Shown here one piece after another: positions 61,682-63,790 of a DNA stretch of 64,000 bases. Made by a program: the position numbers and the translations under genes. The stretch spans positions 87,645 through 151,644 of the IMG/VR virus record IMGVR_UViG_3300028394_000045; one strand, written 5' to 3'. The first letter of the stretch is position 1; every line of letters begins with the position of its first letter. The notes under the pieces are model-generated. The model was not told the DNA's origin and made no database searches. It saw only the letters and a program-made list of their open reading frames with translations. Source of the stretch: a virus.

Positions 61682-61890
61682 ATAGAAAAACCCTGCCGTG
61701 TCCGGTAACATTAAAAGAGGTCACCGGCCAGAGGGCAGAGCCGTGTTGTTGGTGGGATTCGTTTTGAGGCCCGTCCCGGCGAGTAGATCACTACTTCCTG
61801 TTACATTGCATTTATGTACTGTTACCTGCCCTAAGGGTTAGCTAGCTACCTTAGCGACTCATACTGGATAATGTAACTTATCCGCTGTTC
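61682..61890 (-). ncRNA. Putative structured ncRNA between tRNA-Gly and tRNA-Thr
   Basis: No ORF in the track. Hairpins GGATAA/TTATCC, CTAAGG/CCTTAG, AGTAG/CTACT, CCGGTGAC/GTTACCGG; loop GTTACA complementary to downstream TGTAAC; ends in a stem plus U-tract. Confidence 0.55.
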
Positions 61891-61983: not shown

Positions 61984-62553
61984 CTACACAAGACCTTCAG
62001 CAGTCAATGTGCTGACCACTTGTTCACTCAGAGTGAATTCTGTACGAACATTGATGTCCAACAATTCGTCTTGCAATCGTTGCTTTTCTTTCTTGGCTCG
62101 GATCACGTGAGCACGGAACTCAGCAATATCCTCGACTGAGAATATAGATGTGTCCACTGTGCTTTCCGAGTAGTACACAGAACGAGCGTCTTCTTTGCGA
62201 TTGCGGATCTTGTTCATCTTGCCAGCTACTACTTCGGCATTTTCACGCACAGCCTTGCTGGCCAATTCGGTGTAGGTCTGGATCTGCTTGTCACAGATGG
62301 CAATGTCGGCCAGTTTGATGTTCACACCCACAGAGTGATTTGCTTGGCTCACAGCCTTGCGTATTTCGTACAGGCTTTCTGTCAGTGCGGTGTGGCGTTG
62401 ATTATCTGCCAGGAACTTGACCTTCAGGTCAGAGATCTTGAGCTCTGCATCTTGGAATTCATTGATACTGGCATCTGTGGTAAACTTGATACCTTTCAAT
62501 GCGTCTTGGATGGCCAACTGCAATATGTTGGATTTTCGTAGATTGATTTTCAT
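61984..62553 (-). CDS. All-helical coiled-coil protein, possibly DIP1984/DUF6847-like
   Basis: Heptad-rich 189 aa. LYEIRKAVSQAN and KQRLQDELLDINVRTEF recall the 'L..I..N' and 'L...I...N...E' pattern of that family (from memory, unverified). Confidence 0.5.
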   Translation of the reverse strand: MKINLRKSNILQLAIQDALKGIKFTTDASINEFQDAELKISDLKVKFLADNQRHTALTESLYEIRKAVSQANHSVGVNIKLADIAICDKQIQTYTELASKAVRENAEVVAGKMNKIRNRKEDARSVYYSESTVDTSIFSVEDIAEFRAHVIRAKKEKQRLQDELLDINVRTEFTLSEQVVSTLTAEGLV

Positions 62554-62574
62554 AATTTCTTTCGTTAAACAATA

Positions 62575-62828
62575 AAGGTGGCAAGACCCGAGTCAAGTCA
62601 CAGACTATTCAATGTACAACATTCAACTTGCAATATGCAAAGCACAGAGGCCTACACATGTCCGGATATCAAAGTGCAAATGTCTATATAATTCCGGGTC
62701 ACGCAAGCACGGTCCGGTTTTACCCGGGGCCAATTTGGAAGTTCAGCGTACGAGGCTGAGCTGGCATGAAGCCAACTTTTTGTCTGTTCTAATCTACTCT
62801 GATCTTGCCGGCCGGTTTGCACCGACAA
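62575..62828 (-). ncRNA. Putative structured ncRNA / long 5' leader with heptamer repeat array
   Basis: 13/14-bp closing stem (62796-62809 with 62580-62593), several internal hairpins, and tandem TTGNNNN units. Confidence 0.65.
62590..62686 (-). repeat. 7-nt period (T/C)TG array
   Basis: - strand: TAGACAT TTGCACT TTGATAT ... CTGTGCT TTGCATA TTGCAAG TTGAATG TTGTACA TTGAATA gt CTGTGAC TTGACTC. Confidence 0.75.
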
Positions 62829-62834
62829 AAACAA

Positions 62835-62863
62835 ATTTTACACGAAACACTGACTCAAGTCAA
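62835..62863 (-). promoter_or_regulatory. Sigma70 promoter within an inverted repeat
   Basis: TTGACT-N17-(TG)TAAAAT; the CGAAACACT.TGACT/AGTCA.GTGTTTCG palindrome spans the -35 and spacer. Confidence 0.7.
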
Positions 62864-62875
62864 GTGTTTCGGTAA

Positions 62876-63346
62876 TCATGCGGCCCTTAGGCCTTTAAGG
62901 CGGTCCGCAGCATATGAAGCAGCAAACGCCTGTGGTTTCACAAACGGTATCACGTTGCAAGTGCCTTTGATGTAACCAATGGCCTGAGAAATCACACAGC
63001 TGGAACCGTGCATTTCGTCGGGGTTGATGTCAAGATGCACTTCAACATCACGCCCTTCTAGCACATCGGCCAGCTTGAGGTAAAGTTCAGACACCTTGTA
63101 CACTTCAGTCATAAGACGCATGGATGGTTTGCCAGGCTTGTGGTCAAACACACGTTCGCGATGTACTTCGCCGAATAGCTTGCATCCGTTGTTGCCATTG
63201 ATGTGAACCACGATGGCCAGCACATAGTCTGCCCACCATTCTCCATCCAGCTTGATTCTTTCGGAATCGCAACCGATGTAGATACGTGTTTCAGGAGTTT
63301 GTGCCCGGATAAATTCTGCCACTTGGGTCAAATCTAGTTTTTTCAT
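62876..63346 (-). CDS. RNase H-like protein (YkuK/DUF458 family)
   Basis: IYIGCDS, RLMTEV, VEVHLDINP, VKPQAFAASYAADR. Confidence 0.8.
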   Translation of the reverse strand: MKKLDLTQVAEFIRAQTPETRIYIGCDSERIKLDGEWWADYVLAIVVHINGNNGCKLFGEVHRERVFDHKPGKPSMRLMTEVYKVSELYLKLADVLEGRDVEVHLDINPDEMHGSSCVISQAIGYIKGTCNVIPFVKPQAFAASYAADRLKGLRAA

Positions 63347-63361: not shown

Positions 63362-63790
63362 TTAGAAATCCTCGGTGATCTGTACCAAGTCGTCCGGCAC
63401 ACCATCGTTGGTGCCCGAATAACTCACACTGCCACCATAATAACCATTGTGGCTGTTGCGCACTTCAAGGTCTATGTATCCACGGTCAGTACGTATGGTC
63501 CAGAACGCATCTTGGACCACTTCGTATCCATCTTCGTCGCTGCGATCGTCGCCCCAGCCCTTGGATTCCACTGCTAGCACTTCTGCACCGCGTAACAAGT
63601 CAAAGCTATTGCCTTCGCCTAGTATATTTACGCCGCTCACATGGTTGAACCATACAGAATTGCAGCAGTCATTCTCAGTGTCGAAACGATAACGTCGCCC
63701 AGAGATGTCACGAAACACCAGGGTCCACTTGTCGTTGCCTATAAACAAGCCGTTGATGCGCTTGCCTACCAATACGTTAAATTCACTCAT
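63362..63790 (-). CDS. Hypothetical phage protein (DCC...RNSHNGYYGG motif)
   Basis: AAGGA SD; 142 aa. Confidence 0.75.
   Translation of the reverse strand: MSEFNVLVGKRINGLFIGNDKWTLVFRDISGRRYRFDTENDCCNSVWFNHVSGVNILGEGNSFDLLRGAEVLAVESKGWGDDRSDEDGYEVVQDAFWTIRTDRGYIDLEVRNSHNGYYGGSVSYSGTNDGVPDDLVQITEDF

What the first reader, a model, noticed from the sequence alone, without database searches (positions are those of the whole stretch)
61984..62863. Candidate RNA-protein system: structured ncRNA with a 7-nt-period UUG array in front of a helical coiled-coil gene
Seen in sequence: a sigma70 promoter (62835-62863) points into ~275 nt of leader before the ATG at 62553. The leader is closed by a long-range 13/14-bp stem (GGCAAGAUCAGAGU with ACUCGGGUCUUGCC) and holds hairpins AGUUGGC/GCCAGCU, UCAGC/GCUGA and CCGG/CCGG. 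It also holds about 11 heptamer units, 8 beginning UUG, 2 CUG and 1 UAG. Six are in perfect tandem (CUGUGCU UUGCAUA UUGCAAG UUGAAUG UUGUACA UUGAAUA). Only the first triplet and the period are kept, which is not how a slippage repeat decays. A second short array has period 5 (CAGAG UAGAU UAGAA CAGAC, ~62782-62801). Established: ring-shaped oligomers such as TRAP bind fixed-period triplet repeats, one per subunit. Inference: the downstream 189-aa helical protein (DIP1984/DUF6847-like by eye) forms a ~11-12-mer ring that wraps this RNA, either as a ribonucleoprotein or for autoregulation.
Basis: partly seen in the sequence, partly recalled or inferred. Interest (0 to 1): 0.88.

Follow-up and report, generated by a model that had tools for sequence, protein, structure and literature searches.

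The report
New jumbo-phage RNA with UG heptads
Between two genes of a freshwater jumbo phage lies a previously undescribed, expressed, folded RNA of about 245 bases whose most conserved feature is a UG placed every seventh base. It always travels with one small helical protein gene, so the two probably work together as an RNA-protein particle of unknown function.

Summary
Window 62826..62580 (minus strand) encodes a structured RNA of about 245 nt. It was found in 74 of 79 phage loci fetched through the neighbouring protein, and in all 75 new loci fetched through an RNA pattern (79 distinct sequences). No Rfam family matches.

- **Structure:** covariation supports four helices: 93% of cells pair and 27 of 31 pairs show compensatory change.
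- **UG heptads:** the most conserved positions are eight (N)UG triplets in 7-nt register, with free spacers: 2 in a hairpin loop, 4 in tandem, then 2 more. 78 of 79 RNAs keep at least 4 UG at period 7.
- **Not just a leader:** in over half of the lineages the RNA lies downstream of the 189-aa gene, always on the same strand. It sits inside tRNA arrays.
- **Expression:** lake metatranscriptomes from two studies each hold a 228-229-nt contig identical to it, with no cover on the flanking genes.
- **Protein:** a fold relative of DUF6847/DIP1984, predicted to self-associate through a two-fold interface. This does not support an 11-12-mer ring.
- **Linkage:** the gene is the RNA's only constant neighbour (37 of 37 loci; the next family is in 11 of 37).
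- **Cultured relatives:** probable distant copies occur in Brevundimonas jumbo phages.

Best reading: a new phage RNA-protein module. Direct binding is inferred, not shown. The scan had noted the same element in another genome (e1-5337210, e1-5337216).

The parts
62835..62863 (-). sigma-70-type promoter TTGACT-17-TAAAAT that drives the RNA in this lineage
   Evidence: Conserved in the near clade. Other lineages have a tRNA directly 5' of the RNA instead.
62811..62826 (-). P0: 5' hairpin GUCGGU-GCAA-ACCGGC with a GNRA loop
   Evidence: The stem covaries in the near clade (GUCAGC-GAAA-GCUGGC, GUCAAC-GCGA-GUUGAC). Whether it stays on the mature RNA is unknown.
62580..62809 (-). core of the ncRNA, from the P1 5' strand to the P1 3' strand (230 nt)
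   Evidence: Covariance model R1 matches 62809..62580 at 165 bits. nhmmer profile matches 62826..62582. Metatranscriptome contigs of 228/229 nt equal 62587..62814/62815.
62796..62809 (-). P1 5' strand (pairs with 62580..62593)
   Evidence: 14 of 14 pairs show changes on both sides in relatives.
62580..62593 (-). P1 3' strand, followed by ACC
62782..62790 (-). invariant AG (62790-62789, pairs with CU at 62597-62596) and the P2 5' strand ACAGAC (62787..62782)
62596..62605 (-). P2 3' strand GUCUGU (62605..62600) and the conserved ACUUG junction
62743..62777 (-). P3 hairpin (62777..62759, loop UUCAU) and P4 hairpin (62759..62743). P4 is absent in several lineages.
62714..62727 (-). P5 hairpin CCGG-GUAAAA-CCGG. 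In most other lineages the loop reads CUUGAAA.
62652..62706 (-). Px helix (62706..62703 with 62655..62652) enclosing P6 (62697..62693 with 62666..62662). The P6 loop carries two invariant UUG, 7 nt apart (62679, 62672).
62606..62647 (-). tandem heptad array CUGUGCU UUGCAUA UUGCAAG UUGAAUG UUGUACA UUGAAUA. UG is invariant and the spacers are free. Most lineages carry a variable hairpin between units 4 and 5.
   Evidence: Left unpaired by RNAalifold.
61984..62553 (-). 189-aa helical protein gene, the constant partner of the RNA
62569..62596 (-). weak promoter-like site TTGACT-16-TATTGT over the RNA's 3' end. It might drive the gene on its own.
   Evidence: 9 of 12 matches, no more sites than shuffles give.

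Best explanation
This is a gene for a stable, folded non-coding RNA of a new family, carried in the tRNA arrays of a large group of freshwater and sewage jumbo phages.

**Shown:**
- The RNA folds into a long closing stem (P1), a second stem (P2) and a multi-branch core.
- An unpaired strand presents (N)UG every 7 nt: 2 in a hairpin loop, 4 in tandem, then 2 more.
- It is transcribed from its own promoter here, and behind a tRNA in other lineages.
- It is found in metatranscriptomes as a species of about 230 nt.
- It is genetically coupled to one 189-aa helical protein that is a fold relative of DUF6847/DIP1984 and is predicted to self-associate.

**Inferred:**
- RNA and protein form a ribonucleoprotein.
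- Several copies of the protein (dimers), or another repetitive binder, dock one per UG heptad. HutP and TRAP read fixed-period triplets in this way.
- The folded scaffold positions that strand.

The cellular target is unknown. The setting points to tRNA or translation.
For: - **Structure:** 93.2% of cells pair, against 75% in shuffles and at most 54% when the partners are slid. 27 of 31 pairs show compensatory change and 0 of 500 shuffles reach the observed values (RNAalifold). The window sequence folds with z = -3.1.
- **Heptads:** eight invariant UG with free spacers. The base after UUG is a pyrimidine in 257 of 283 cases.
- **Linkage, starting from the protein:** the RNA was found in 74 of 79 loci, always on the gene's strand, upstream or downstream of it. 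The other 5 loci (L020, L035, L051, L079, L080) have short flanks on one side.
- **Linkage, starting from the RNA:** all 75 new pattern hits are true RNAs. 71 have the gene next to them and the other 4 lie at locus edges.
- **Specificity:** in 37 non-redundant loci the gene family is the only one present in all 37. The next real family is in 11.
- **Expression:** metatranscriptome runs from two studies each hold a 228/229-nt contig identical to 62587..62814/62815, with no cover on either flanking gene. A third study holds a fragment ending next to sequencing adapter at 62808.
- **Protein fold:** AlphaFold2 pLDDT 88.9, all-helical with 14 invariant Lys/Arg.
- **Self-association:** score 0.56, best of 3 controls 0.04. 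The mark was reached by 20 of 30 proteins solved as pairs of one chain and by 1 of 23 solved as single chains. These counts hold only roughly, because my own alignment and four copies were used. Runs agree in at least 66% of contacts and the partner's pLDDT is at least 82.
- **Depth of the pairing:** at 28% protein identity, Brevundimonas jumbo phages still have a 313-nt unannotated gap directly after the gene. It holds a 15-bp closing stem, UG heptads and z = -4.0, and it is the best covariance-model hit in that locus.
- **Precedent for the period:** HutP reads XAG triplets with 4-nt spacers in two blocks (PMC2425495).
Against: - No experiment or computation here shows that the protein touches the RNA. 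Gene linkage may reflect co-expression or a shared pathway.
- The protein has no recognised RNA-binding domain and matches no Pfam, NCBIfam or PADLOC model.
- The predicted interface uses the same residues on both chains. That suggests a closed dimer rather than a ring or filament.
- Contigs cannot fix RNA ends or strand, and an RNA library may carry DNA.
- The heptad strand might instead serve RNA-RNA contacts or a host factor.
Confidence: 0.55

Rival explanations
1. The RNA works alone or with a host factor. It would be a decoy or sponge (like CsrB/RsmZ or 6S RNA) whose UG heptads soak up a host RNA-binding protein or nuclease with a 7-nt footprint, or an RNA-only assembly like ROOL/GOLLD. 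The neighbouring gene would be linked only by co-expression or by acting in the same pathway.
For: - The invariant motif with free spacers fits any repetitive binder.
- The RNA is seen in RNA libraries where the gene's mRNA is not.
- The protein lacks known RNA-binding domains.
- ROOL and GOLLD are also phage-borne, tRNA-adjacent RNAs of unknown function (bioRxiv 10.1101/2024.12.08.627333).
Against: - The gene is the only constant neighbour through many rearrangements (37 of 37 loci, next family 11 of 37), down to 28% protein identity. This is hard to explain without a direct functional tie.
- No HutP, TRAP or cold-shock domain was found in the 152-kb contig, but that contig is only 44% of the genome and the host is unknown.
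Confidence: 0.22
2. It is a cis-acting 5' leader that the downstream protein binds to control its own synthesis, like the TRAP or T4 gp32 leaders.
For: In the window's lineage the RNA ends 26 nt before the ATG, and only a weak promoter-like site lies between them, so the gene is probably co-transcribed with the RNA.
Against: - In more than half of the lineages the RNA lies downstream of the gene, 20-2000 nt away and sometimes with tRNAs between.
- L030 and L012 have a consensus promoter between RNA and gene.
- RNA-library contigs stop at the RNA's borders.
Confidence: 0.08
3. The NUG triplets act as start-codon or anticodon-partner mimics tied to the phage's initiator-like tRNA. The RNA and protein would then handle tRNA(CAU) or act on translation initiation.
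For: - The invariant triplets are NUG (UUG, CUG, and A/G/C/UUG at unit 5), which is the set of bacterial start codons.
- tRNA(CAU) genes make up 33 of 98 tRNAs that flank or sit inside the module, against 64 of about 437 in the loci as a whole.
- The nearest ones have the C1xA72 mismatch and the CUCAUAA loop of initiator tRNA.
- The module always lies in or near tRNA arrays.
Against: - The counts share ancestry, and the window's own clade has no CAU tRNA within 3 kb.
- UUG, not AUG, is conserved, and it pairs worse with CAU.
- Three-base pairing outside a ribosome is weak.
Confidence: 0.1
4. The TTG heptads are DNA-level sites (iterons, or a protein or RNA-polymerase binding array), not RNA features.
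For: TTG is the core of the -35 hexamer, and TTGACT occurs twice in the region.
Against: - The array is always on the transcribed strand, inside an RNA whose helices covary.
- Two of the units sit in a hairpin loop of that RNA.
- A 7-bp period puts successive sites on different faces of the DNA helix.
- The region is present in RNA libraries.
Confidence: 0.03

Closest known systems
HutP-hut mRNA (Bacillus) and TRAP-trp leader
   Same: An RNA presents a short triplet at a fixed period, with spacers that do not matter, in blocks separated by a linker or hairpin. HutP reads XAG with 4-nt spacers, the same 7-nt period, in two blocks of three (PMC2425495).
   Different: - The triplet is UUG/NUG, not NAG.
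- The array sits inside a stable, folded, free-standing RNA, not an attenuator.
- The candidate partner is an all-helical DUF6847-like protein predicted to dimerise, not a HutP or TRAP ring.
- No HutP or TRAP homologue was found in the contig.
T4 RNAC and RNAD (species 1 and 2 RNAs)
   Same: Stable small RNAs encoded inside a phage tRNA cluster, with unknown roles (PMC3014915).
   Different: About 245 nt rather than about 120-140 nt (the T4 sizes are from memory). It has an invariant UG heptad array and a constant protein-gene partner. Homology could not be tested because no T4 reference sequence was on hand.
GOLLD and ROOL RNAs
   Same: Structured RNAs of unknown function that are phage-borne, often next to tRNAs, and abundant in lake or environmental data.
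   Different: Much smaller. No Rfam match to either. It has a dedicated protein-gene neighbour, whereas GOLLD and ROOL form RNA-only cages.
Rsr (Ro60) with Y RNA (YrlA); type III toxin-antitoxin (ToxIN)
   Same: An ncRNA gene sits next to the gene of its protein partner. Y RNAs have a long closing stem. ToxI is a repeat array.
   Different: - No Rfam Y RNA match.
- The protein is not Ro-like or ToxN-like and has no PADLOC match.
- The repeats are 7 nt and not identical, whereas ToxI repeats are 36 nt (from memory).
DUF6847 / DIP1984 family (PDB 3kdq)
   Same: The protein's predicted fold matches. An Atlas cluster in which 19% of members carry PF20935 gives TM 0.71/0.88, 149 residues, rmsd 1.9. 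3kdq_A is the best PDB chain: Foldseek E 0.012, VIA Z 10.3 with rmsd 7.8 over 141 residues.
   Different: No sequence-level match to PF20935. The protein has an extra C-terminal helix of about 40 residues. That family's function is itself unknown, and no paper in the library mentions DUF6847.

Membership tests
Any Rfam 15 family (including tmRNA, RNase P, 6S, SRP, Y RNA, GOLLD, ROOL) | covariance-model match at or near the gathering score | tested here: not met
   Only six tRNAs match in the window at gathering scores. On 62500-62900 with E up to 10 there are only three chance-level hits, to snoRNA and lncRNA models, at E of 4 or more. ARAGORN finds no tmRNA.
HutP/TRAP-type periodic triplet RNA target | three or more copies of a triplet at a fixed period with non-conserved spacers | tested here: met
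   Six tandem and two further (N)UG at period 7. UG columns carry at least 1.8 bits and spacers about 0-0.8 bits. 78 of 79 RNAs have a run of at least 4.
HutP/TRAP-type periodic triplet RNA target | the repeats are accessible (single-stranded) in the folded RNA | tested here: inconclusive
   RNAalifold leaves the array unpaired. Per-sequence partition functions give intermediate unpaired probabilities of 0.2-0.7, with local weak hairpins that do not covary.
HutP/TRAP-type periodic triplet RNA target | a cognate HutP (PF09021) or TRAP (PF02081) ring protein | tested here: not met
   No match in the 152-kb contig, which is only 44% of the genome. The adjacent protein is helical, not of either fold.
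HutP/TRAP-type periodic triplet RNA target | protein binding that depends on the triplets | not testable with these tools
   Needs EMSA or CLIP.
DUF6847 (PF20935) / DIP1984 | Pfam HMM match over the curated cut-off | tested here: not met
   No hit at E up to 5 for 20 family members, none for the window protein, and none in a six-frame search of the contig.
DUF6847 (PF20935) / DIP1984 | same fold | tested here: met
   Atlas: TM 0.71 by query and 0.88 by target, 149 aligned, rmsd 1.9. PDB 3kdq_A ranks first in Foldseek and VIA-align, but with high rmsd. The language-model neighbour scores 0.91.
Stable RNAs of phage tRNA clusters (T4 RNAC/RNAD) | encoded within the tRNA cluster on the tRNA strand | tested here: met
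Stable RNAs of phage tRNA clusters (T4 RNAC/RNAD) | sequence or structure homology to RNAC/RNAD | not tested
blastn of the region against 50,697 phage records found no match over the RNA.
Type III toxin-antitoxin (ToxIN-like) | tandem repeats of about 34-36 nt upstream of a ToxN-type endoribonuclease | tested here: not met
   The units are 7 nt and not identical. The protein has no PADLOC match and is all-helical. The RNA is often downstream of the gene.
cis-regulatory 5' leader | constant position directly upstream of the regulated gene | tested here: not met
   The RNA lies downstream of the gene in 32 of the 55 distinct loci listed.

The most novel reading that the evidence does not exclude
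This is a new class of phage ribonucleoprotein. A folded scaffold RNA displays eight start-codon-like NUG triplets at 7-nt spacing. These are read by copies of a DUF6847-like protein. The particle, encoded beside initiator-like tRNA genes inside jumbo-phage tRNA arrays, acts on translation initiation or on tRNA(CAU) during infection. It would also give the first function for the DUF6847/DIP1984 fold.
Probability: 0.15. Interest if true: 0.9.

Novelty: categorically new. Interest (0 to 1): 0.8.

Why it matters
- **Understudied class:** phage-encoded structured RNAs with dedicated protein partners are rare, and the stable RNAs of phage tRNA clusters have lacked a function since the 1970s.
- **A well-supported new family:** it has strong covariation, expression evidence and an unusual, sharply defined motif: invariant UG every 7 nt with free spacers.
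- **Testable:** it has a single constant protein partner and probable members in cultured Brevundimonas jumbo phages.
- **Possible gains:** a new mode of periodic RNA recognition by a helical protein, a role for the DUF6847/DIP1984 fold, and insight into why jumbo phages carry large tRNA arrays.

Tried and rejected
- **Rfam:** searches at gathering scores and at E up to 10 gave nothing.
- **Protein family libraries:** Pfam, NCBIfam, PHROGs and PADLOC give the protein no named family. A profile search against PDB sequences gave only chance-level hits.
- **Locus search with the single protein** in viral contigs found nothing. The alignment was needed.
- **Bacterial genomes:** one hit, in a metagenome bin that is probably a mis-binned phage contig.
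- **Brevundimonas locus:** the nhmmer profile did not reach it. The covariance model reached it only with filters off, at E 0.2, so membership there rests on architecture and position.
- **Covariance model:** A trimmed one was built.
- **Other TTG-N4 triple arrays in the window:** two further hits at chance level, so no other targets are evident.
- **HutP, TRAP, cold-shock domain and DUF6847 models** on the 152-kb contig: no match, on an incomplete genome.
- **blastn with an initiator-like tRNA** against five related records found nothing, even where one is known to lie, so that test was uninformative.
- **Metatranscriptome gaps:** parts of the stretch without cover, including the 189-aa gene, show nothing about its expression.
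- **Literature:** searches for DIP1984, DUF6847 and phage tRNA-array ncRNAs found no description of this RNA.
- **Readings considered and dropped:** tmRNA, RNase P RNA, 6S RNA, SRP RNA, Y RNA, retron ncRNA, and a small ORF. Against an ORF: indels are not in threes and the helices covary.
Full report
**Setting.** The window is the last 64 kb of a 151.6-kb IMG/VR phage contig, estimated 44% complete, so the genome is a jumbo phage of roughly 350 kb. The finding lies on the minus strand inside a tRNA array: tRNA-Val and tRNA-Ala upstream, tRNA-Gly, Thr and two Arg downstream. The order is an RNaseH-like gene (62876-63346), the intergenic RNA, the 189-aa gene (61984-62553), then tRNA-Gly.

**The observation.**
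- The promoter TTGACT-17-TAAAAT (62863..62835), the 14-position closing stem (62809..62796 with 62593..62580) and the three named hairpins are all in the sequence.
- The tandem heptads are exact: CUG at 62647, then UUG at 62640, 62633, 62626, 62619 and 62612.
- Scanning the whole window on both strands for any trinucleotide repeated 5 or more times at any fixed period of 4-12 gives three arrays. Two are in this RNA and the third is a codon-phase array in a gene.
- The pattern TTG-N4-TTG-N4-TTG occurs nowhere else above chance.

**Relatives.**
- The protein has hundreds of homologues, nearly all unannotated, from metagenomes and from contigs of up to 348 kb. A profile search counts 1240 clusters at 50% identity with E of 0.001 or better.
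- Fetching 79 viral loci through the protein and iterating an nhmmer profile of the RNA found the RNA in 74 of them, always on the gene's strand. The five misses have short flanks on one side.
- The reverse test used a 19-base degenerate RNA pattern in IMG/VR. It returned 76 stretches, 75 of them new. All 75 are true RNAs by the profile, 71 have the gene adjacent on the same strand, and the other four lie at locus edges.
- The order varies. The RNA is directly upstream of the gene in the window's lineage and some others. In more than half of the lineages it is downstream, 20 nt to about 2 kb away, sometimes with tRNAs between.
- In 37 non-redundant loci with full 3-kb flanks, the only protein family present in all is the 189-aa family. 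The next real family, the RNaseH-like gene, is in 11.
- The pair is therefore a specific two-part module and not a leader-gene unit.

**Structure.** MAFFT alignments of 50 and 46 sequences with RNAalifold give the following layout:
- P1, 13-14 bp;
- an invariant 2-bp AG:CU;
- P2, 6 bp;
- a variable region with hairpins P3-P5;
- a helix Px enclosing P6;
- a long unpaired strand that returns to P2.

On my named structure 93.2% of cells pair. Column shuffles give 75.0% and partners slid by 1-3 columns give at most 54%. 27 of 31 pairs change on both sides, and none of 500 shuffles reaches any of the five measures. A covariance model built on the alignment scores the window at 165 bits over 62809..62580. 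A 5' hairpin (P0) with a GNRA loop precedes P1 and covaries in the near clade.

**The heptads.**
- Across 79 distinct RNAs, the columns with the most information in the whole molecule are eight UG dinucleotides, mostly preceded by U.
- Two lie 7 nt apart in the P6 loop. Four are in tandem (YUG, UUG, UUG, UUG). Two more (NUG, UUG) come just before P2.
- In most lineages a variable hairpin of about 25-30 nt is inserted between units 4 and 5. In the window's lineage it is absent, which gives six in a row.
- The spacers carry almost no information, except that the base after UUG is a pyrimidine in 91% of cases.
- 78 of 79 RNAs have at least four UG at period 7. The next best dinucleotide and period combination reaches 29%.
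Such a pattern is the signature of repeated recognition of a short motif, not of a decaying slippage repeat or of base pairing.
- The period-5 AGA array is peculiar to the window's clade and lies largely in the purine-rich strands of P1 and P2.

**Expression.**
- Lake metatranscriptomes from two different studies each contain one contig of 228 or 229 nt. Each is identical to 62587..62814/62815 and has no loose ends. There is no cover over either flanking protein gene.
- The neighbouring tRNAs are also covered.
- A third study has a fragment from 62674 to 62808 flanked by adapter sequence. That puts one cDNA end within a base of the start of P1.
- Contigs from relatives' versions of the RNA are present too.
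- Contigs cannot prove ends, strand or abundance, and RNA libraries can hold DNA. Even so, the pattern fits a discrete, stable RNA about the size of the covarying core.

**The protein.**
- AlphaFold2 gives a confident all-helical model, pLDDT 88.9.
- The best solved match in both Foldseek and VIA-align is 3kdq, an uncharacterised Corynebacterium diphtheriae protein. The match is weak by score: E 0.012, and Z 10.3 at rmsd 7.8.
- A structure search of the ESM Atlas finds a mostly viral cluster of 2572 members in which 19% carry PF20935 (DUF6847). TM is 0.71/0.88 over 149 residues at rmsd 1.9 (feature search).
- There is no sequence-level match to that Pfam model. I call the protein a fold relative, not a member.
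- A four-copy complex prediction passes its controls: score 0.56 against 0.04 for the best of 3 controls. The mark was reached by 20 of 30 proteins solved as pairs of one chain and by 1 of 23 solved as single chains. These counts hold only roughly here. The runs agree in at least 66% of contacts and the partner's pLDDT is at least 82.
- The confident interface uses the same residues on both chains, so it is two-fold symmetric. That supports self-association but argues against a ring of 11-12 subunits built from one heterologous interface.
- Fourteen invariant Lys/Arg lie largely outside that interface, in the N-terminal segment and the C-terminal helix (residues 154-170). They would suit nucleic-acid binding. 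This is inference.

**Cultured relatives.** tblastn finds the protein at 27-28% identity in three Brevundimonas pondensis jumbo phages of 352-357 kb from sewage. In each, the gene is followed by an unannotated gap of about 311-313 nt that is 98% identical among the three. The gap has these features:
- a 15-bp closing stem and a second stem;
- z = -4.0 against shuffles;
- a 3' strand with UG at 7-nt steps (UUGCCCU GUGCUUU UUGCCCU GUGCUCA);
- the best, and only full-length, covariance-model hit in the locus, although only at E 0.2.

I regard this as a probable distant member. It provides an experimental system.

**Mechanism.**
- Shown: a conserved, covarying, transcribed RNA; an invariant periodic motif; exclusive gene linkage in both orders; predicted self-association of the protein.
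- Inferred: the protein, probably as dimers, or less likely another repetitive factor, docks on the UG heptads, one site per unit. The P1/P2/Px/P6 scaffold holds the blocks (2 + 4 + 2) in a fixed geometry.
- The nearest mechanistic precedent is HutP, which reads XAG with 4-nt spacers in two blocks joined by a 12-17-nt linker.
- What the particle does is open.
- The context is the tRNA array. tRNA(CAU) genes with the C1xA72 hallmark of initiator tRNA are over-represented right next to the module, and the invariant triplets are the start-codon set NUG. That is a lead towards translation initiation or tRNA handling, but the counts share ancestry and the window's own clade lacks such a neighbour.

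**Comparison and novelty.**
- No Rfam family fits.
- T4 RNAC and RNAD share the setting but not the known features.
- GOLLD and ROOL share the phage and tRNA setting but are far larger and form RNA-only cages.
- Y RNA with Ro and ToxIN share only the adjacent RNA and protein genes.
- I found no paper describing this RNA.
- First readers of this scan had flagged the same element in another genome without follow-up.
- I rate it a new RNA family and a new kind of RNA-protein gene module.
- The caveat is that the binding itself is untested.

Noticed in passing
L021, L027, L039, L046, L048, L063 (between gene and RNA); L030:3578-3652, L012:3580-3655, L053:3578-3654 (just after the gene): tRNA(CAU) genes are over-represented beside the module: 33 of 98 flanking or internal tRNAs, against 64 of about 437 in the loci. 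The nearest ones have the C1xA72 (or A1xA72) mismatch, the ...GCAACCA end and the CUCAUAA loop of initiator tRNA-fMet. Most lack the three G-C pairs of the anticodon stem.
   Followed up: partly
window 62569-62596 (minus strand): Promoter-like TTGACT-16-TATTGT overlaps the conserved ACUUGAC at the RNA's 3' end. It might give the 189-aa gene its own start. It matches 9 of 12 positions, no better than chance.
   Followed up: no
window 61682-61890 (minus strand): The gap between tRNA-Gly and tRNA-Thr, flagged by another first-reader note as a structured RNA, is partly covered (61782-61873) by contigs in the RNA libraries, with several differences. It may be a second stable RNA of the array.
   Followed up: no
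window 62876-63346 and 63362-63790 (minus strand): An RNaseH-like protein (PF04308, phrog_11311) and a DUF7448 protein sit just upstream. They accompany the module only in the near clades, 11 of 37 loci.
   Followed up: partly
L156:4598-4910 (Brevundimonas phage Domovoi), L158:1798-2108, L159:1798-2110: An unannotated intergenic stretch of about 311-313 nt, 98% identical among three cultured jumbo phages, strongly folded (z = -4.0) and with UG heptads. It is a probable distant member of the RNA family and is missing from the GenBank annotation.
   Followed up: partly
L030:2955-3000 and L012:2766-2817: In these lineages a consensus promoter (TTGACT-17-TATAAT) lies after the RNA. In L030 it is directly before the gene. 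In L012 a small ORF of about 57 aa (2818-2991) lies between the promoter and the gene. RNA and gene can therefore be separate transcription units.
   Followed up: no
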